From a virus (lineage: Duplodnaviria; Heunggongvirae; Uroviricota; Caudoviricetes), in IMG/VR virus record IMGVR_UViG_2513237200_000008: 49,114 nt of DNA; one strand, given 5' to 3'. Below are positions 22,363 to 37,863 of this stretch, piece by piece. The translations under genes were made by a program, and so were the position numbers. The stretch's first letter is position 1, and every line of letters starts with the position of its first letter. A model generated the notes under the pieces. The model was not told the DNA's origin. It was given only the letters and a program-made list of their open reading frames with translations, and did no database searches.

Positions 22363-23176
22363 GTTTGCCCTTCTCCGTTAAAAATTCGTCGGGTAGTTTC
22401 TGAGGGGCGTAGATCGGCAGAGCATCGCAACTGCAATAAACCTCCTCCCCGGCAGCAGTGATTTCGTCATAAAAACCATATACGGGCTTAATAAGCCCCT
22501 GCTCCAGCGCCCACGAATCGCGGAGGAGATAAATTTTCTCGTCGCGCTCTTTGTGGTCCTGTCGGTATTTGTAGCCCGGACGCCGCCAGTTAGAATGCCA
22601 GCGCAGAGCAATCGCACCACTCTGAACAGCCAGCAGATACTTAACGTTGCTCGCCAGCTTATGTCCCTGGTCAATTGCCACCCGGCGACTGATAAAATCC
22701 ATATCCTTCACGGACTTCTGAAAACCGGCCTTCACTTCCCGGCGATCAATTTCGCTCACCCCGTCAGGCGGAATGGACGTAACCCATCCCTGAAAACGCT
22801 GTATGGTTTTCTCGATAGCCTGTTCGCGGTTGAGTTTTATCAGGTTGGCACTGGCGAAAATTCGCCTGTCTAGTTCCTTGCGAAACTCAGGTTTCAGTTT
22901 TTCAACAGTGATTTTTTTAGGGCCGTCAGGAGGCTGATCCCGTAATGCCCCGCCGTCGATGACAAGACGGCTGTAGATAGCGGTGAGGTGTTTTCTGGCT
23001 ACGGTATCATCAGGGGTTTCTCGCTGAGCGGCTACACGGAGTTTCCGGCACCATTCGAGCAATGATTTTTCGCTATCCCACCCGTGATTTACGTAGTAGT
23101 TAACGGCATCCGTCAGAACCTCATATAGCGTCCTGATCCGTTTCTTCTCCCTCACCGCCCGGCTGGAAATTGCCAT
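22343..23176 (-). CDS. Head morphogenesis protein (Mu F-like / SPP1 gp7-like); start placed at the Met with an AGGAGA RBS
   Basis: ORF directly downstream of the portal gene, overlapping its 3' end. Confidence 0.55.
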   Translation of the reverse strand: MAISSRAVREKKRIRTLYEVLTDAVNYYVNHGWDSEKSLLEWCRKLRVAAQRETPDDTVARKHLTAIYSRLVIDGGALRDQPPDGPKKITVEKLKPEFRKELDRRIFASANLIKLNREQAIEKTIQRFQGWVTSIPPDGVSEIDRREVKAGFQKSVKDMDFISRRVAIDQGHKLASNVKYLLAVQSGAIALRWHSNWRRPGYKYRQDHKERDEKIYLLRDSWALEQGLIKPVYGFYDEITAAGEEVYCSCDALPIYAPQKLPDEFLTEKGKREFNRA

Positions 23177-24560
23177 CAGGCGTCTCCTGCTTCGGTGGTT
23201 CATAATTCGCCAGCGCGTCCACATCAATGATGAGTGGAGCTTCGCCATAGGTTTGCGTGGCATTAACAAGGCTTGCCAGCCATTCAGTGACGGCGGCACG
23301 GTTTTCAGGATCAACCTGTGGCGACACGGCAGAGAAAAGTGCTATCGCCTGTTGAATCACTTTACTGTCGCTTTCCCGGCGTTTGTCCGGCGACTCCTCC
23401 ACCAGCTCCTGCCATGTCGCGGTAAATTCACGTCGCCACTGGTAAAACGTGGTTTTATAGTCATCAGTTATGATGTCCGGGTAATCATTTTTCAGCGACT
23501 GATAAAATTCCTCGTTCCAGGCGATGTACTGCACCAGGCGTTCGAAATAATCCATCACGGGTTCAATCTGCTGGCGTACACCATCGATATACTGGCTGAT
23601 GGCTTTCGAATCTTCGGTCCCCTCACCGAAACCATTCGAAAAGGCTTCCTCTTTGATGAGGATCGCCGGAACGTCACTCCCTGACGCAATATCGGAAATA
23701 ATATTGTCGCGTGCAGCGTTTAGCGCACCATCGATGTTTTGTAGATTTAGCGAGGTAACGTCCTCATCCTTCCCGATACTAAGCACACCTTTATTTTTTG
23801 CCTCTTTGACGTATTCCCTTTTTCGTCCCGTGGCGGCAGCCATGATCCCGTCAAGTTTCGAACCGTACTGCACAACTTTAGCTACCAGTACGCCCGCCTT
23901 CTGGCTGACGAGATCATTCGCCTCCATCGTGTTGATATAGGATTTCAGGGAATAAAGAACGCGCTGAAACACACTTCGTCCGGTGAATCCGAACGATGAA
24001 CTCTGAAACTCCAGATAAATCGGTGTGCCGTTGAAGATTTTCAGTGTGCGTGACGGATGCCAGTCTTTCCCACCAATCTTCAGTTTTTTATTGGCTTCCT
24101 GGAAAAACGGGCTGTTGGGGTTCTGGTCAGTCACCATCGAACCGGAAGCGTTCAACGGGTCCCACGCGTTGATATACACGTCATCTTCTGTCAGTCCGAA
24201 CGTCGGAAGCGGTTCACGACATGGAACGCTGTCGGTGCCCACGCCGATCGCTGCAGCACCGTAGCAACGAGACAGAAAAAACAGATTTTTAATCTTCTCG
24301 TTGACCTTCATGCGTTCCCATACCTCCTGAAAACGCCGCACAACCCTCTCGTCAGGGTCTGTCTCCACGTTATACTGGCGCGGCTTACACATCGCCATCA
24401 GTATGGGTTTTTCGACAAGTTTTCCGCCCAGAGGATGGAATTGCCACAGCTGCTTACACAATTCATAGCCAATGTCGGTTCCCGGCTGAATTTCTTCAGC
24501 CTCAAGAATATGCATCAGTGCTGAACCGAGGCCGCCAGTAATCTCGATCTCTGCCATCAA
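23121..24560 (-). CDS. Portal protein
   Basis: 479 aa, immediately downstream of terminase large subunit; acidic C-terminus. Confidence 0.7.
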   Translation of the reverse strand: MMAEIEITGGLGSALMHILEAEEIQPGTDIGYELCKQLWQFHPLGGKLVEKPILMAMCKPRQYNVETDPDERVVRRFQEVWERMKVNEKIKNLFFLSRCYGAAAIGVGTDSVPCREPLPTFGLTEDDVYINAWDPLNASGSMVTDQNPNSPFFQEANKKLKIGGKDWHPSRTLKIFNGTPIYLEFQSSSFGFTGRSVFQRVLYSLKSYINTMEANDLVSQKAGVLVAKVVQYGSKLDGIMAAATGRKREYVKEAKNKGVLSIGKDEDVTSLNLQNIDGALNAARDNIISDIASGSDVPAILIKEEAFSNGFGEGTEDSKAISQYIDGVRQQIEPVMDYFERLVQYIAWNEEFYQSLKNDYPDIITDDYKTTFYQWRREFTATWQELVEESPDKRRESDSKVIQQAIALFSAVSPQVDPENRAAVTEWLASLVNATQTYGEAPLIIDVDALANYEPPKQETPDGNFQPGGEGEETDQDAI

Positions 24561-26989: not shown

Positions 26990-27241
26990 TTAATCCTGAT
27001 TTTTATCCACCCTGAGTAGTTCGCGCAGGGCAAAGGCATCCCCTTTTCTGGCAAGCTTAAACAATGCCGCCCGTAGCTCGGCTTCACCTTTCGCTCTGCC
27101 CTTACGGATGGACGCATAAAAATTTGTCATTGCTTCCCGATTTTCTTTCAGTCGGTTCAGATCAACATCCAGAACGTCAGCGATTTGTTGTGCAGTCATC
27201 CGGCACGCTGCCAGAGACTCGACTTTCGAATACGGAATCAT
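26990..27241 (-). CDS. Small hypothetical protein (possibly DNA-binding)
   Basis: 83-aa ORF upstream of the terminase small subunit. Confidence 0.3.
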   Translation of the reverse strand: MIPYSKVESLAACRMTAQQIADVLDVDLNRLKENREAMTNFYASIRKGRAKGEAELRAALFKLARKGDAFALRELLRVDKNQD

Positions 27242-28127
27242 TTGTCACCCCCATTGATATGCAGGGTGTCTTCTTCCTGTATTTTTCGTGAAGGATTTTT
27301 ACTGCAGCGTTGTTCCAGGTGACCTGATGGTGAATGCGTTTATGGCTGGCACCCATCAGTGAGATTTTTACACACGACGGCGCATACATGACGGAGTAAA
27401 AACTTTTAACGTAGGTTCCGGAATCCAGATACAGCTCGGTCATTCCGCCGCTGTTTTTCTGCGTCTGTTTCTGCCCTAACTGGACAGCACCGATCGTCAT
27501 AAACAATTCACCACAGCGACCGAGATTCGTGTACGTATTCACATCCTCGTTAATGCGCCCCATGAATGAGAACGGTCGATCAACCGAACAGATAAAGCTG
27601 TTCATTGCCTTGCGTTTCACCCACGAAGCATGGCCGCCATTGTCACCAAGAAAATCCCCGCCCTGCGACATAGCGATGGAAAGCGCAGGTATTGATTCGT
27701 AGTACGCCAGCATTTCAGAAAGGATCGCATCCAGTTTTCTTATCGGGAAATAGGCCTGGTCATAGTTGCGATCCACCCGAAACTGGAACTCGTGATAATC
27801 ATCATCGAGCTGAATGAAGTATTTACACCCGACCAGTTTTACCAGGTCGAAACAGGCATTACGGGCGTAAAAAATTGAGCGGCGATCACCGAAATTATCG
27901 GCTTCGTCAAAACGACTGGCTATATCGGCTTTGGAAAACACCAGCACCTGTTCACCAAATTCAGCTATGTACTGATGCCGTGTCTTATCTTCATCATCAA
28001 CAACGATAAAAACTTTCCCGGTATAGCCAGCACGACGCAACGTCCGGTAAGTCAGAACTTTGTCCGGGCGCCCGTGAGTCAGAATAAAGGCGCAAAAATC
28101 ATCACGCATATTCCTCCTCCCCGCCAT
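27177..28127 (-). CDS. Hypothetical protein with a possible GT-A-like DxD motif, partner of the ParB-like nuclease
   Basis: 316 aa; DDD motif (QLDDDYHEF) about 110 residues in; overlaps the ParB-like gene stop; fold assignment is inferred. Confidence 0.45.
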   Translation of the reverse strand: MAGRRNMRDDFCAFILTHGRPDKVLTYRTLRRAGYTGKVFIVVDDEDKTRHQYIAEFGEQVLVFSKADIASRFDEADNFGDRRSIFYARNACFDLVKLVGCKYFIQLDDDYHEFQFRVDRNYDQAYFPIRKLDAILSEMLAYYESIPALSIAMSQGGDFLGDNGGHASWVKRKAMNSFICSVDRPFSFMGRINEDVNTYTNLGRCGELFMTIGAVQLGQKQTQKNSGGMTELYLDSGTYVKSFYSVMYAPSCVKISLMGASHKRIHHQVTWNNAAVKILHEKYRKKTPCISMGVTNDSVFESRVSGSVPDDCTTNR

Positions 28128-28890
28128 GCATGATCTCCACCATGCGCTGCGTCATCCGGACAAATCCATTTTCAATAGCCTGCTGATAATCAATGATCAC
28201 CAGCGCCGACTCCTCGAAAAGGCACTGAATTTCAGCGGGAGCGTGAGCGTAATAGTCCGCAATTCTGCTGAAATTAAACACCGTATGACGTTCTGCCGCA
28301 CACAGGAGGAATTTCTCAATATCAGGATCAAGGGACGCCGAACGTATCCGGCTGATCAACTCCTGAGTTTTCGTATCGTCGTACAGTTCACTGATATCTG
28401 GTTTATCGCCCGACGGCTCATAAACAGGCGTATCAATTTTCGTCGTGTACGGCTCCTCCTCATTTCCTGTACCTGGCAAAACATCCGTCAACAATTCATC
28501 AATTTCTGTTGGGCTGAATCCTGTCAGGGAGACATCAAAATCAGCATTGATTAGGTCCGACAGCTCCATCCGTAACAGATCTTCATCCCAGCCAGCATTC
28601 ATCGGCAGGCGATTATCTGCCAGGCGGTACGCCTTTTTTTGGTCATCCGTCAGACCAGACAGAACAATGACCGGAACCGAATCCATTTTGAGCACTTCAG
28701 CCGCCATAACACGACCGTGACCCGCAATAATTTCGCCCTTTTCATCAATCAGCACTGGATTAGTCCAGCCGAATTGCTTAATGCTTTCTACCAGTTGTGC
28801 CACCTGCTCAGGGCTGTGTGTCCTGGCATTGTGTGCATACGGAGATAGTTCTTGTAACGGGCGATAGACGATCTTCAATTTCTCGCTCAT
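28102..28890 (-). CDS. ParB-like nuclease domain protein
   Basis: 262 aa; N-terminal region (YRPLQELSPYAHNARTHSPEQVAQLVESIKQFGWTNPVLI ... GHGRVMAA) typical of ParB/Srx N-terminal domains. Confidence 0.65.
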   Translation of the reverse strand: MSEKLKIVYRPLQELSPYAHNARTHSPEQVAQLVESIKQFGWTNPVLIDEKGEIIAGHGRVMAAEVLKMDSVPVIVLSGLTDDQKKAYRLADNRLPMNAGWDEDLLRMELSDLINADFDVSLTGFSPTEIDELLTDVLPGTGNEEEPYTTKIDTPVYEPSGDKPDISELYDDTKTQELISRIRSASLDPDIEKFLLCAAERHTVFNFSRIADYYAHAPAEIQCLFEESALVIIDYQQAIENGFVRMTQRMVEIMHGGEEEYA

Positions 28891-31281: not shown

Positions 31282-31356
<75 letters not shown>

Positions 31357-31359
31357 ATA

Positions 31360-31435
<76 letters not shown>

Positions 31436-33690: not shown

Positions 33691-33846
33691 TTACTCTCTA
33701 GATTCGTAGTCTACGAAGACAGCGACCTCCGTCTGGCCGGTTCGGATTCGTACCTCGCAGAGGTCTTTCCTCGTTACCAGTGCCGTCACAATGACGGTTA
33801 AACAGATGACGATCAGGGCGATTAACATCGCCTTTTGCTGCTTCAT
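33691..33846 (-). CDS. hok: Hok-family type I toxin (HokD/RelF-like)
   Basis: 51 aa MKQQKAMLIALIVICLTVIVTALVTRKDLCEVRIRTGQTEVAVF..., near-identical to Hok/Gef family sequences from memory. Confidence 0.8.
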   Translation of the reverse strand: MKQQKAMLIALIVICLTVIVTALVTRKDLCEVRIRTGQTEVAVFVDYESRE

Positions 33847-33901
33847 AGCCTGCTTCTCCTTGCCTTTCGGCACATAAGAGGCTAATCTCTATGTGTCGCA
33901 T
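33698..33901 (-). CDS. mok: mok-like overlapping reading frame (modulation of killing)
   Basis: 67-aa ORF overlapping hok in another frame and starting upstream, as in hok/mok/sok loci. Confidence 0.45.
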   Translation of the reverse strand: MRHIEISLLCAERQGEAGYEAAKGDVNRPDRHLFNRHCDGTGNEERPLRGTNPNRPDGGRCLRRLRI

Positions 33902-33930
33902 AGATATGGCCTCAGATTAATGTTAAGCGT
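33850..33930 (+). ncRNA. sok: Expected position of Sok-like antisense RNA (boundaries not determined)
   Basis: Inferred from canonical hok/mok/sok organisation only; no promoter or terminator mapped. Confidence 0.25.
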
Positions 33931-34056
33931 CTTGCCGGACGCGTAATGTTAACTGGGGCTTTTCTCTATCTGCCTTTTGGTGTTCATGCCTGAGACAGAT
34001 AGCCTCAAGCACCCGCAGCAATTCTACTTAACCCCCGTCACCTCGCCAATATAAAA

Positions 34057-34146: not shown

Positions 34147-34476
34147 GACAACCTCCTGTATTGGACGTACACCAGTCCTGATAAATATGAGGATGTCTCG
34201 TCAGTGATTCAATGCAACTATTGGGTATAGTTTCTGTGATTTTGTTCTGTAGAAATGGAACACAACAACCAGTCACCATCCGCTCTTCTTTAAATGCGCT
34301 AAGTCAGACACAAGCCAACATTTTAGTTGGCTTTGAGCGTTCTGGAGATGCGACATTGCTAACAGCCTTTTGAATGAACTAATCGGGGGCTAGTCATAAC
34401 GGGCATAGCAGTCTCCAAGTAAGCAAGACTTTGCCATACAGAATGGAGCTAAGTTATTCATCAAATCTCCTTAAAT

Positions 34477-35454
34477 TCATAAAGTTAAATGCGGCCCTAA
34501 ATACGCCACATATATCCGCTGATTTACTGCGTCAGCATAAAAATGTAGGCGGTAACCGTCAGGTAGTTTTACATGATTCTCGCAATAGACCTGCCGTCCA
34601 TCATCTAACCAAAATATGCGCTCTTTCTTCTTTTTGGAGGCATTATTTACACTGTCCGATTCACCGCTAACTTCAGCAGCCAAACCCAAATCTCTTAAAT
34701 ATTCATGACGGTACTCTACATACTCACCTGAACGCCATTTCTCACTAAACGATTCCAACACATTTAGCGCATCTCGTGCCTTGAACAAGACATTTTGCCT
34801 AGCAGACCAACCTTGTAGACTTGTACCTATTTGATTTGACAACAAAGTGAGATGAGGAAACAAATCTGCTCTTTTCAGCCAGATATCCTTAGCAGTACTT
34901 AACAACGTATTACGATGTTGTTTGAGTTCATCTCCATGCACATCCAAGCTCGCAGAATTACTCAGATTTAAAATCGTTTCATCCCTTTGTTCTGGTATTG
35001 CATCAAGCTCGAAAACCCATACTTTAAAATGGCTATTTGTCCAAGTAGCTAAAGCCGTAAAACTAGCAAGAAAAGTTTTAAAATAAAACGCTGCTAATAG
35101 CACCGCTTTACCTGTATCTTCCCCTGGCAAGCCAACTTCTAATACATCACCTAAAGTTTCAATATCCACGGTTTCAAAGAGAGGCTGTTTCGTTTCAAGA
35201 GACTTTAGAAATCGACACCAATCCGCAAGTTCTGCAACTTTGCTCGCAGAGGCAAGCCAATTGCGCACAAAATATCCGTTAGCCAGCTCCAATCCCATTA
35301 GCGACTTGTCTTGATCTTCATCGATGAGCAAAATTTTCAGCCCAGCAGTTCGGCAGACCTTAAGAACAGTAAAGAAAGCCAATAGTCCTTCATCTGCATC
35401 CTCTTTGCTAGCAAATGGCAAAGAATGATGGTTCAACACAATTCCATTACTCAT
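34477..35454 (-). CDS. Third gene of candidate defense operon: 325-aa protein with no motif I recognise
   Basis: ATGA start/stop overlap with the upstream ATPase gene; AT-rich. Confidence 0.6.
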   Translation of the reverse strand: MSNGIVLNHHSLPFASKEDADEGLLAFFTVLKVCRTAGLKILLIDEDQDKSLMGLELANGYFVRNWLASASKVAELADWCRFLKSLETKQPLFETVDIETLGDVLEVGLPGEDTGKAVLLAAFYFKTFLASFTALATWTNSHFKVWVFELDAIPEQRDETILNLSNSASLDVHGDELKQHRNTLLSTAKDIWLKRADLFPHLTLLSNQIGTSLQGWSARQNVLFKARDALNVLESFSEKWRSGEYVEYRHEYLRDLGLAAEVSGESDSVNNASKKKKERIFWLDDGRQVYCENHVKLPDGYRLHFYADAVNQRIYVAYLGPHLTL

Positions 35455-36560
35455 AACAGATGATCCAACTCCTTATCCCATTGGTCAAAGAAGCCTTCCG
35501 GCCAACAGTCTATTCGTCCCTCATCATCAATATTGGGGTACATGACTTCTGAGGCGTGAATGGAGTTATGAACATCTCGCTGTAAGAAAAAGACTTTGAC
35601 ATCGTCAGCTGCAACCACTTTCTGCTTCACCGCAACCCGTATACCGTTGAGAAAATGATCAGAATGAGATTCAACGATTAATTGCACGCCATTATTCGCA
35701 GCAATGGAGCACAATTTACCCATCAAGGATTGCCCAGCGGGATGCAAGTGTGATTCTGGGTTTTCAATAATCAGCAAATCACCTTTTGCCGCACTTAGTA
35801 TACTGGTTACGACAGGTAACACATAACTTAATCCAAACCCCACATTCTGTGGTTTAAAGTCTTCGGTGGTGTCTTTCCCTTGGTTAAAAGAGTAACTAAG
35901 ACTCACCGAATTAAACTGAGGCTGCGCTACTGCTTTAATTTTTAACCCTGGCGTAATATCCGACATCCATGCTTCAATATTAGAAAGCAAAGTCCCTGAA
36001 ACAGCCTTTTGATGGCGTAACGCTTCTATTTCCAGGTCTTTAGCGCCATTAACCGCGATAAAATGAACTGCAAATTCGCCATGATGACCAAGTGATTTTA
36101 AATCACGGATATGAAACTCAGACAACTGGTGATGGCTTTGTGGGCCTAACCTATCGGCACATAAATACTGAAAATTAGAGTTAAATAAGCTTAATAATTC
36201 TGAATCACCGTCAATACCAGATTTACGCAGCGGCAGCAGATCTGAGTCATGTTGATAATCAAACTCAAACCGTGTTGGCTGTTCTTTCTCGAGCCATTTA
36301 ATGGTAAAAATAATCTCTTCTTGTTCACTAAAACTAGAGAGCGCGTCTTTACCCGTACCGATATTGACATAATCACCATTTAACAGCAAACCCTTAGTTT
36401 TAAGGGTATTGCGTTCATAAGACTGCCTTAAAAGCAATAAACTTTGCACAAGCGTTGATTTTCCCATGCCATTAAGGCCTGAGAACAGATTCAGATTACC
36501 CAGTGGAAAACTGGCATTTAACAAGGTTTTAAAGTTTTGAATATTAATAAACTCAATCAT
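35451..36560 (-). CDS. ABC-type AAA ATPase (AAA_15/AAA_21-like with DUF3696-like C-terminus)
   Basis: Walker A GLNGMGKST near the N-terminus; LLIIENPESHLHP; C-terminal ESHSDHFLNGIRVAV; 8-nt overlap with the upstream gene. Confidence 0.7.
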   Translation of the reverse strand: MIEFINIQNFKTLLNASFPLGNLNLFSGLNGMGKSTLVQSLLLLRQSYERNTLKTKGLLLNGDYVNIGTGKDALSSFSEQEEIIFTIKWLEKEQPTRFEFDYQHDSDLLPLRKSGIDGDSELLSLFNSNFQYLCADRLGPQSHHQLSEFHIRDLKSLGHHGEFAVHFIAVNGAKDLEIEALRHQKAVSGTLLSNIEAWMSDITPGLKIKAVAQPQFNSVSLSYSFNQGKDTTEDFKPQNVGFGLSYVLPVVTSILSAAKGDLLIIENPESHLHPAGQSLMGKLCSIAANNGVQLIVESHSDHFLNGIRVAVKQKVVAADDVKVFFLQRDVHNSIHASEVMYPNIDDEGRIDCWPEGFFDQWDKELDHLL

Positions 36561-37680
36561 TAAGCATCTCTTTAATCAAAGCATTGACTTTTTCATACCG
36601 TATTTCCACATGCTCTTTTCGCTGAGTGGAGTAGCTAATAACATTAATAAATTCAGCATCTTCCAATAACGTCTGCACCTTTTTTTGAAACTTTTTTTGA
36701 TTATAAACCAAGCGGTTAAACTCGTTTTCAGTTAATTTCACCAACATAACCATCCAGACTTCAAATAGTGTTGCATTTTTTGACCGTCTTCTTGATGCAG
36801 GGTTTTTTTCAAAACCCTTTTCTCCTAACAGTTGGTAACAGCGCTCTATTGCAGTTGAATACTTAGCTTTAAACTCTGCACGGTAGGCATCATCACCTTT
36901 TTTGATATCTTCCATGGCTTTATCTAAAAACGAAGAGATTTCTTTTTTGTTTTTAGGGTCTAAATAATCAAAGCGATAGAACGCCCAGAATCGCAATACC
37001 AGTTCCTGATCCTTCATACGTTTGGAAAGGTCACCTAGCATGGCTTTCGAGCATGCTGAATTGGCTAACTCTTCGAGCAATTCTCTGTCTCTTGGCTTAG
37101 CGAGCGCATTACGGATCTCTTGATTATTTAGAGTTAAGCCACCTGTATTGATCCGGCGAAACACCGAATACTTAACGTCCTCAGGCGTACCCGGCTTAAT
37201 CATGTACACAGTAACAGGACATTCTTCAATACGGCGTTGATATTGACGATGTAATTTATCGAAGGTTTTACCATTAAGGTCTGTTAAGAACTCCAGTCCA
37301 TTGAGACGAAGCTTTTTATCTAACACAAACTTGCGAATCGTAGATAACCGCTGCAAGCCATCCACAATTAGCCAATTATTTTCATCGGACGCATCGAAGT
37401 AGAAAGCAGGTAATGGGAACCGAATCAAAATTGATTCGATTAATCGGCTCATCTTGCGGTTATCCCATAACTCCGCATGGCGCTGAAAATCGGTATTCAT
37501 GTCGATCTCATTGTGCTGAATTCGCTTAATCAAGGCATCCAACGACTTCGGTTCAACGACGATATCAATATCAGTCGGGTTGAACGGGTGCATCACCTCA
37601 TCAAGCAGTTCCGGCTCTTCCTCTTCCGCACCTGGCGCAACCAACTCTTCATCAAGCTCGGTTTCTTGATAATCAACCAT
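36553..37680 (-). CDS. DUF262-like (ParB/GmrSD N-terminal-like) domain protein, first gene of candidate defense operon
   Basis: DGxQR-type motif in LIVDGLQRLSTI; acidic N-terminus; AT-rich. Confidence 0.65.
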   Translation of the reverse strand: MVDYQETELDEELVAPGAEEEEPELLDEVMHPFNPTDIDIVVEPKSLDALIKRIQHNEIDMNTDFQRHAELWDNRKMSRLIESILIRFPLPAFYFDASDENNWLIVDGLQRLSTIRKFVLDKKLRLNGLEFLTDLNGKTFDKLHRQYQRRIEECPVTVYMIKPGTPEDVKYSVFRRINTGGLTLNNQEIRNALAKPRDRELLEELANSACSKAMLGDLSKRMKDQELVLRFWAFYRFDYLDPKNKKEISSFLDKAMEDIKKGDDAYRAEFKAKYSTAIERCYQLLGEKGFEKNPASRRRSKNATLFEVWMVMLVKLTENEFNRLVYNQKKFQKKVQTLLEDAEFINVISYSTQRKEHVEIRYEKVNALIKEMLND

Positions 37681-37863
37681 GTTCTTCCCCTTTTATTAAT
37701 CGTGTCTTACCTGTAAGCAACTCTTGTATCATACCTTGTTTGATTTGGCGGATTCTACCTAGCGGCTACCGCTTTTGGCACAAAACAGACAATCACGCTA
37801 GCTCTGCTCTGTCCGTGCCATGAAAATGGCAATTTATATCTGAGCTAATGCTCTTTAATCTCG

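What the first reader, a model, noticed from the sequence alone, without database searches (positions are those of the whole stretch)
34477..37680. AT-rich three-gene operon (DUF262-like protein, ABC ATPase, unknown 325-aa protein): candidate anti-phage defense system in the nin region
Three co-directional genes are tightly coupled: an 8-nt stop/start overlap (ATGATTGA) at 36553-36560 and an ATGA overlap at 35451-35454. Gene 1 carries a DGxQR-type motif (VDGLQRLSTI) characteristic of DUF262/ParB-like N-terminal domains found in GmrSD, BrxU, SspE and DndB. Gene 2 has a Walker A (GLNGMGKST) and a C-terminal ESHSDHF segment like the AAA_15/AAA_21 ATPases of Septu PtuA, PARIS AriA, AbiL and OLD. 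Gene 3 has no motif I can recognise and may be the effector or sensor. The block is visibly AT-richer than flanking phage genes and sits at a classic moron site between replication genes and Q, next to hok/sok. Whether it corresponds to an already named system (a Menshen-like or GmrSD-like architecture is possible) or is undescribed cannot be decided without a search.
Basis: partly seen in the sequence, partly recalled or inferred. Interest (0 to 1): 0.85.

Follow-up and report, generated by a model that had tools for sequence, protein, structure and literature searches.

The report
Menshen anti-phage operon in prophage
The three genes are an ordinary copy of the already named Menshen (NsnABC) anti-phage defence system, carried as swappable cargo in a Rac-like prophage of E. 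coli W after being lifted out of a type I restriction-modification operon.

The parts
36553..37680 (-). nsnA: the presumed sensor. It has a ~55-aa acidic N-terminal tail, a ParB-like DUF262 NTPase domain and a C-terminal region (ParBDB in the published nomenclature). Having no extra N-terminal domain makes this Type I Menshen.
   Evidence: PADLOC NsnA PDLC03877 E 3.5e-123, covering aa 16-374. Pfam GmrSD_N 1.4e-21 over aa 60-193. Motifs DGLQR 107, FRRIN 174 and FQRHAELW 65. dN/dS 0.06-0.07 against relatives.
35451..36560 (-). nsnB: ABC-type ATPase (AAA_15/OLD-ABC class) with a C-terminal DUF3696 helix. It is the presumed transducer that holds NsnC.
   Evidence: PADLOC NsnB PDLC03878 E 8.9e-122, aa 1-369. 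Pfam AAA_15 5.6e-23, AAA_21 6e-19, and DUF3696 3.9e-19 over aa 317-368. Walker A GLNGMGKS, Walker B with the NsnB-typical EN dyad (LLIIEN), GFG in place of the ABC signature, and H-loop ESHSDH (compare PMC12065111). dN/dS 0.03.
34477..35454 (-). nsnC: the effector. Approximate layout: aa 1-165 PIN-like Rossmann domain without the catalytic acidic set (34960-35454), aa 166-255 helical linker, aa 256-325 BECR-fold RNase domain (34480-34689) with H294, R302 and H322.
37673..37762 (-). Remnant of the 3' end of a type I R-M specificity gene (hsdS), without a start codon. Its stop overlaps the nsnA start (ATGGTTGA) exactly as in the intact operons.
   Evidence: DNA alignment to E. coli C10 hsdS-nsnA. 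Translation PLGRIRQIKQGMIQELLTGKTRLIKGEEHG* against the C10 HsdS C-terminus ...RLSKTRQIKQSMMQELLTGKTRLIKGEAHG*.
34340..37768 (.). The cargo slot of the Rac-like prophage as occupied in E. coli W. The Menshen module homologous to R-M-embedded copies is 34468-37758. The stretch 34340-34467 is unassigned; it includes an AAGGAG ribosome-binding site and an ATG at 34459-34461 resembling the nsnC-hsdR junction of C10.
   Evidence: Backbone homology to the strain A11 prophage stops at 34339 and resumes at 37769, and homology to C10 spans 34468-37758. Junction alignment. No flanking repeats.
37752..37781 (-). Weak sigma-70-like site (GTGCCA-18-TAGAAT) spanning the backbone/cassette junction. It is the only candidate for lysogen-time transcription of the operon.
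   Evidence: Consensus scan, 9 of 12 matches. Promoter-like sites in the region are no more frequent than in shuffles (6 found against 11.0 expected), so this is a lead only.

Best explanation
This is a Type I Menshen (NsnA-NsnB-NsnC) anti-phage defence system, carried as accessory cargo by a Rac-like prophage of E. coli W. Shown here: the identity of the three proteins, their domain make-up and conserved residues, their purifying selection, and the origin of the module from a type I R-M operon. Inferred from the published model for Menshen and from relatives (GmrSD/SspE for DUF262; Gabija, Septu and PARIS for ABC-ATPase-plus-effector complexes; YafQ, YoeB and RelE for the BECR fold): (1) NsnA binds incoming phage DNA through its ParB-like DUF262 NTPase and C-terminal DNA-binding region. 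The trigger is possibly hypermodified T-even DNA, since tested Menshen systems restrict T2, T4 and T6. (2) This stimulates the NsnB ABC ATPase oligomer, whose DUF3696 tails clamp the catalytically dead PIN-like domain of NsnC. (3) ATP binding or hydrolysis releases or activates NsnC. (4) The NsnC BECR RNase domain (H294, R302, H322) cuts RNA, most likely mRNA or tRNA, and stops translation. The outcome is aborted infection or growth arrest of the infected lysogen, which protects the clonal population and the prophage.
Against: No experiment on this allele was found, and I could not establish whether the published 'EcMenshen' is this operon because its accession table is not held. No Menshen protein has a solved structure, so the sensor-transducer-effector order is a model. 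NsnA motif I has one extra residue (QRxxxxW rather than QRxxxW). The module has lost the promoter context of its ancestral hsdMS operon, and only a weak promoter-like site lies upstream, so expression in the lysogen is unproven. The NsnB-NsnC contact was not modelled here.
Confidence: 0.9

Rival explanations
1. The module is an accessory of type I restriction-modification, for example a back-up that fires when the R-M is inhibited or that reads its methylation. As an orphan in E. coli W it would be silent or non-functional, merely hitch-hiking in the prophage.
For: Every relative examined at about 86-89% NsnC identity lies between hsdS and hsdR, with nsnA overlapping the hsdS stop. W retains the hsdS remnant. 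W-type genomes lack that R-M. Only a weak promoter-like site lies upstream. The Menshen paper itself raises possible cooperation with methylases.
Against: All three ORFs are intact, and the exact alleles recur on hundreds of contigs in the same slot. [quoted passage not shown] Menshen operons defend when cloned by themselves. Tolerance of the orphan in W argues that self-tolerance does not need the partner methylase.
Confidence: 0.07
2. It is a GmrSD-type type IV restriction enzyme split over several genes. The DUF262 protein would direct DNA cleavage of modified phage DNA, making the effector a DNase rather than an RNase.
For: NsnA matches Pfam GmrSD_N and more weakly PD-T4-2_A at 5.1e-40. 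Tested Menshen systems hit T-even phages, which have modified cytosines.
Against: No DUF1524/HNH nuclease domain occurs in any of the three proteins. The only nuclease-like domain is a RelE/YafQ/YoeB-like BECR fold. Purified SsMenshen did not cleave DNA.
Confidence: 0.02
3. It is a toxin-based addiction module that stabilises the prophage. NsnC would be a RelE-family toxin kept in check by NsnB and NsnA, with phage defence incidental.
For: NsnC has a BECR toxin fold. NsnB matches AAA_21, the 'AbiEii toxin, type IV TA' family. hok/sok sits next door.
Against: There is no antitoxin-like small gene. The three-gene architecture is conserved in R-M operons and transposons rather than paired with labile antitoxins. 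Direct phage-defence phenotypes are published.
Confidence: 0.01

Closest known systems
Menshen (NsnABC) of Solibacillus silvestris StLB046 (Millman et al. 2022; analysed in PMC12065111)
   Same: Same three-gene order. NsnA has DUF262 and no extra N-terminal domain (Type I). NsnB is an ABC ATPase with an EN Walker B, GxG and a DUF3696 tail. NsnC is an inactive-PIN-like domain plus a BECR RNase with an H-R-H triad and YafQ as the top structural match.
   Different: The host is a Gammaproteobacterium. The carrier is a Rac-like prophage slot, with an hsdS remnant upstream. The inPIN family number was not assigned here.
R-M-embedded Menshen of E. coli C10, Shewanella algae and marine metagenomes (hsdM-hsdS-nsnABC-hsdR); also present on Photobacterium damselae plasmids, whose flanking genes were not examined
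   Same: 86-96% protein identity and about 87% DNA identity, with the same overlaps, including the ATGGTTGA junction between hsdS and nsnA.
   Different: The W copy has lost hsdM, most of hsdS, hsdR and the YgjP-like peptidase gene, and sits alone in a prophage.
GmrSD / SspE / BrxU / PD-T4-2 (DUF262-containing defence proteins)
   Same: They share the ParB-like DUF262 NTPase with the DGxQR motif, presumed to sense phage DNA.
   Different: In those proteins DUF262 is fused to a DUF1524/HNH DNase. Here there is no such domain, and the effector is a separate RNase-type protein controlled through an ABC ATPase.
Gabija (GajA), Septu (PtuAB), PARIS (AriAB), OLD nucleases and HEC-03
   Same: All use an AAA_15/OLD-type ABC ATPase that partners a nuclease effector. 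NsnB hits HEC-03B at 2.3e-34, AriA at 7.8e-26 and GajA at 7.7e-13, and OLD 6p74 is its nearest solved relative at 3.8e-7.
   Different: Those hits are partial and far weaker than the hit to NsnB. There is no Toprim, HNH or AriB-type partner. Menshen adds the DUF262 sensor protein.
YafQ / YoeB / RelE type II toxins (BECR fold)
   Same: [quoted passage not shown]
   Different: Sequence identity is only 6-17%. The domain is fused to a PIN-like domain and a helical linker, and there is no antitoxin gene. Ribosome dependence is unknown.

Membership tests
Menshen (NsnABC) | Three adjacent co-directional genes in the order nsnA, nsnB, nsnC | tested here: met
   ORFs at 37680-36553, 36560-35451 and 35454-34477 on the minus strand, overlapping by 8 and 4 nt.
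Menshen (NsnABC) | Each protein matches the family profile (PADLOC NsnA, NsnB, NsnC) | tested here: met
   E 3.5e-123, 8.9e-122 and 1.1e-89, all essentially full length and far above any other defence family.
Menshen (NsnABC) | NsnA has a ParB-DUF262 domain with motifs QRxxxW, DGxQR and FxxxN | tested here: met
   Pfam GmrSD_N 1.4e-21. DGLQR 107-111 and FRRIN 174-178 are present. Motif I is FQRHAELW, one residue longer than the published pattern.
Menshen (NsnABC) | NsnA has the C-terminal ParBDB helical DNA-binding domain | tested here: inconclusive
   The NsnA profile covers aa 16-374, so the C-terminal region is homologous to other NsnA proteins. No structure was predicted for it, and there is no PDB sequence relative.
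Menshen (NsnABC) | NsnB is an ABC ATPase with an EN Walker B dyad, GxG in place of SGG, an H-loop and a DUF3696 tail | tested here: met
   AAA_15, AAA_21 and DUF3696 hits. GLNGMGKS, LLIIEN, GFG and ESHSDH found. Features as listed in PMC12065111.
Menshen (NsnABC) | NsnC has an N-terminal PIN-like domain lacking the D-E-D-D catalytic set plus a C-terminal effector (here a PB-BECR1-like RNase with an H-R-H triad) | tested here: met
Menshen (NsnABC) | Confers phage resistance | not testable with these tools
   Published for S. silvestris Menshen and for an E. coli Menshen of unknown accession. Not shown for this allele.
GmrSD type IV restriction | DUF262 fused to a DUF1524 (HNH-type) nuclease domain in one polypeptide | tested here: not met
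   Only GmrSD_N is found in NsnA, and no DUF1524 occurs in any of the three proteins.
PARIS / Septu / Gabija | Cognate effector present (AriB Toprim, PtuB HNH, or a GajA Toprim fusion with GajB helicase) | tested here: not met
   NsnC matches only NsnC models in PADLOC. NsnB hits to AriA and GajA are partial and at least 95 orders of magnitude weaker than the hit to NsnB.
RelE/YafQ/YoeB type II toxin-antitoxin | Small stand-alone toxin with an adjacent antitoxin gene | tested here: not met
   The BECR fold is a C-terminal domain of a 325-aa protein, and no small antitoxin ORF belongs to the operon.

The most novel reading that the evidence does not exclude
The orphan copy may be a natural experiment on a functional link between Menshen and type I R-M. 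In its ancestral setting nsnA is translationally coupled to hsdS and the module sits inside the hsdMS-hsdR operon. Menshen might there act as a second layer that monitors the R-M, for example by firing when phage anti-restriction proteins such as Ocr or ArdA disable HsdMSR, or by using the methylation state as a self mark. The prophage-borne orphan would then be either a rewired, R-M-independent variant or a version that guards the host's own, unrelated type I system. That would make this locus a tractable E. coli model for how embedded defence modules cooperate with their host system.
Probability: 0.1. Interest if true: 0.6.

Novelty: already known. Interest (0 to 1): 0.2.

Why it matters
The finding adds little in kind. 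It puts a name and a predicted effector chemistry on three genes that RefSeq still labels 'DUF262 domain-containing protein', 'AAA family ATPase' and 'hypothetical protein' in the widely used industrial strain E. coli W and its derivatives KO11FL and LY180. Three practical points follow. First, W-derived production strains carry a likely abortive-infection system against T-even-like phages. Second, the Menshen mechanism is still unsolved experimentally: there are no structures, the trigger is unknown and RNase activity is unproven. A native E. coli allele that stands alone without its R-M partner is a convenient model for that work. Third, the hsdS remnant documents how a defence module embedded in a type I R-M operon can be excised and re-deployed by a temperate phage. 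The site between the DUF977 gene and hokD of Rac/Qin-like prophages also emerges as a variable cargo slot worth mining. Examples seen there include a SIR2, NTP-pyrophosphatase and adenosine-deaminase trio, a SMEK-domain gene with a methyltransferase, and a 763-aa AAA ATPase.

Tried and rejected
1. Pfam and NCBIfam on gene 3 gave nothing. Pfam on 97 diverse relatives gave only two stray single-member hits, and a profile search of PDB sequences gave nothing significant. The fold assignment therefore rests on the predicted structure.

2. The first NsnC model, built from 66 close homologs (71-92% identity), was poor: pLDDT 64.6, with residues 91-184 below 50. I discarded it in favour of the model from the diverse alignment.

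3. The cassette has no match in 50,697 phage records, even with sensitive blastn. It is not a common phage gene set.

4. I searched for direct or inverted repeats marking the insertion boundaries and found none that flank the insert.

5. The promoter scan gave one weak site, and promoter-like sites were no more frequent than in shuffled sequence. I do not claim a promoter.

6. I tried to establish whether the published 'EcMenshen' is this operon. The supplementary tables are not held and the accession numbers appear in no searchable paper. This is unresolved.

7. A literature search for a description of the DUF977-hokD slot as a defence hotspot found nothing specific.

8. The GmrSD, PARIS/Septu/Gabija and TA-module readings were considered and rejected, as set out in the membership table.

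9. One preprint on BECR classification that mentions Menshen (10.64898/2026.08.28.747851) could not be opened.
Full report
**Observation**

The two junctions read TTAATGATTGAG and TTATGAGT on the coding strand. The cassette is 40.7% GC against 48.5% for the rest of the window.

The window is 100% identical to E. coli W and its derivatives. There the operon lies in a Rac-like prophage integrated at ttcA. It is downstream of ydaT, ydaU, ydaV and the DUF1627 and DUF977 genes, and upstream of hok/sok, the DUF1367, DUF1364 and DUF1133 genes (the last Q-like) and the lysis genes. Rfam confirms sok at 33841-34014.

**Identity**

Pfam gives GmrSD_N/DUF262 for gene 1 (1.4e-21). For gene 2 it gives AAA_15 (5.6e-23), AAA_21 (6e-19) and DUF3696 (3.9e-19). 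It gives nothing for gene 3.

Against PADLOC-DB the three proteins match NsnA (3.5e-123, aa 16-374), NsnB (8.9e-122, aa 1-369) and NsnC (1.1e-89, aa 1-324). Every other defence family scores far lower: PD-T4-2_A 5.1e-40, HEC-03B 2.3e-34, AriA 7.8e-26 and GajA 7.7e-13.

NsnABC is the Menshen system. It was discovered by Millman et al. 2022 and analysed in depth by Li et al., NAR 2025 (PMC12065111). That paper lists several idiosyncrasies of NsnB: a Walker B with EN instead of DE, GxG instead of the SGG signature, an H-loop and a DUF3696 tail. All are present here as LLIIEN, GFG, ESHSDH and aa 317-368.

NsnA has DGLQR and FRRIN. Its motif I, FQRHAELW, is one residue longer than the published pattern. 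It has only a ~55-aa acidic tail before DUF262, which makes the system Type I in the paper's scheme.

**Gene 3**

Close homologs at 71-92% identity are mostly from Vibrio, Shewanella, Plesiomonas and marine metagenomes. They gave a poor model, with pLDDT 64.6.

An exhaustive HMMER search found 418 clusters at the 50% identity level with E up to 0.001. Most of the best 150 are about 320 aa and align end to end. An alignment of 97 of them, at 21-55% identity, gave a model with pLDDT 95.7 and pTM 0.83.

This is the same pair of folds, with the same top hit, that the Menshen paper reports for the experimentally validated S. silvestris NsnC: an inactive PIN plus a PB-BECR1 RNase with an H-R-H triad.

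In the 97-sequence alignment H294 and R302 are invariant. H322, E265, S266, R279, Y318 and G320 are at least 94% conserved. N8 sits at the end of strand 1, where I expect the first PIN catalytic Asp, and it is Asn in 99% of sequences. No four-residue acidic set is conserved.

Several other PADLOC NsnC models match only the last ~70 residues. This fits the domain shuffling described for NsnC.

**Selection and distribution**

dN/dS between the W genes and the copies in E. coli C10, a marine metagenome contig and Shewanella is 0.06-0.07 for nsnA, 0.03 for nsnB and 0.12-0.14 for nsnC.

The cassette is in 17 of 5,426 complete E. coli genomes. Sixteen carry it at 99.9% identity or more in the same prophage slot. 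The adjacent DUF977 gene occurs in 4,166 genomes at 7,185 places.

In the 24 longest contigs that carry the exact W NsnC, the context is always this slot. Members of the same 90%-identity clusters occur in Klebsiella, Enterobacter, Serratia, Kosakonia, Pantoea, Vibrio and Aeromonas. All are annotated only as DUF262, DUF3696, AAA or hypothetical proteins. No sequenced phage in the INPHARED collection has the cassette. Two Photobacterium damselae plasmids carry it at 87.5% identity.

**Origin: the one modestly new point**

In E. coli C10 the same module, at 87% DNA identity, lies between hsdS and hsdR of a type I R-M on an integrase island. In a recurrent marine metagenome contig and in Shewanella algae it is again hsdM-(DUF1016)-hsdS-nsnA-nsnB-nsnC-(SLFN/HATPase)-hsdR-YgjP. 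In Shewanella, and in the nearest relative of the W allele, this lies inside a Tn7-like CRISPR-associated transposon. In all of these nsnA overlaps the hsdS stop by 8 nt.

In W the ~90 nt upstream of nsnA (37673-37762) still encode ...RQIKQGMIQELLTGKTRLIKGEEHG*. This is the conserved C-terminus of HsdS, with the same ATGGTTGA overlap, but with an in-frame stop upstream and no start codon.

Backbone homology to a Rac-like prophage lacking the insert (strain A11) ends at 34339 and resumes at 37769. The W prophage therefore captured nsnABC, with slivers of its neighbours, from an R-M-embedded operon. W-type genomes do not hold that R-M, so the copy is a true orphan.

Association of Menshen with type I R-M is itself already published: 27.9% of loci are linked to BREX, R-M or methylases. 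It holds only a weak promoter-like site, GTGCCA-18-TAGAAT at 37781-37752, and such sites are not enriched over shuffles.

**The slot**

Between the DUF977 gene and hokD, other Rac/Qin-like prophages carry different cargo:
- AbiH plus an unknown gene.
- A SIR2, NTP-pyrophosphatase and adenosine-deaminase trio with a TetR-family regulator gene.
- QueH.
- A SMEK-domain gene plus a methyltransferase.
- A 763-aa AAA ATPase.

I found no paper describing it specifically.

**Mechanism**

Shown here are the domain identities, the conserved residues, the operon structure and purifying selection. The mechanism itself is inferred, following the published model:
- NsnA (DUF262 NTPase plus a DNA-binding region) senses phage DNA.
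- NsnB forms an ABC-ATPase oligomer whose DUF3696 tails hold the dead PIN domain of NsnC.
- Nucleotide turnover releases or activates the NsnC BECR RNase, which cuts RNA and arrests translation.

The experimental support is indirect. S. silvestris Menshen protects against T2, T4, T6 and Fado. An E. coli and the S. silvestris Menshen protect against T4. Purified SsMenshen forms higher-order complexes and does not cut DNA substrates in vitro, which is compatible with an RNA target. Whether that 'EcMenshen' is this allele could not be determined.

**Verdict**

In kind it is already known. The context details (orphaning from a type I R-M, the hsdS remnant and the variable slot) are minor additions. 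Interest is 0.2.

Noticed in passing
window 37673-37762 (-): A start-less remnant of an hsdS 3' end (…RQIKQGMIQELLTGKTRLIKGEEHG*) lies directly upstream of nsnA, with the same ATGGTTGA overlap as in intact hsdS-nsnA operons. It shows the cassette was lifted from a type I R-M operon.
   Followed up: yes
window 34340-37768; loci L003, L013-L017: The site between the DUF977 gene and hokD of Rac/Qin-like prophages is a hypervariable cargo slot. Besides Menshen it holds AbiH plus an unknown 463-aa protein, a SIR2, NTP-pyrophosphatase and adenosine-deaminase trio with a TetR gene, QueH, a SMEK-domain protein plus a methyltransferase, or a 763-aa AAA ATPase. Some of these may be uncharacterised defence systems.
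   Followed up: partly
L009 and L020 (Shewanella algae and a metagenome contig): The closest relatives of the cassette, together with their type I R-M, are cargo of a Tn7-like CRISPR-associated transposon, flanked by TniB on one side and TniQ plus Csy2 on the other, with a VspR-like gene nearby.
   Followed up: no
window ~27177-28890 (-) (L001 4878-6591; L019 13565-14978): The prophage late region encodes a ParB_N-domain protein overlapping a TAGT (tRNA-guanine transglycosylase, DpdA-like) protein just upstream of the terminase genes. This may be a 7-deazaguanine DNA-modification, anti-restriction pair. QueH appears as slot cargo in related prophages.
   Followed up: no
window ~23122-24558 (-) (L001 823-2259): RefSeq annotates a 478-aa protein next to the terminase genes as 'anti-CBASS protein Acb1 family protein'. 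I did not verify this.
   Followed up: no
window 31282-31435 (-): Two prophage-borne tRNA genes, tRNA-Gly(tcc) and tRNA-Thr(tgt), lie between the Q-like gene and the lysis cassette.
   Followed up: partly
L012 6001-6078 (Providencia rettgeri plasmid pPR-NDM-1A): A 78-nt fragment 92% identical to the 3' end of nsnC lies next to a 490-aa ATP-binding protein gene and a SprT/YgjP-like peptidase gene on a conjugative NDM-1 plasmid. This looks like a decayed copy of the same R-M/Menshen island.
   Followed up: partly
window 34390-34472 (-): Directly after nsnC there is an AAGGAG ribosome-binding site and a 23-codon ORF (MNNLAPFCMAKSCLLGDCYARYD*). Its first codons resemble the start of hsdR in strain C10 (MSNVG…), so it is probably a junction remnant rather than a gene.
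   Followed up: partly
window 37816-37831: A perfect hairpin, TGCCATGAAAATGGCA, followed by a T-rich run on the + strand lies in the conserved backbone just inside the DUF977 gene flank. It could terminate cargo genes that are transcribed on the + strand in other prophages, such as AbiH in strain A11.
   Followed up: no
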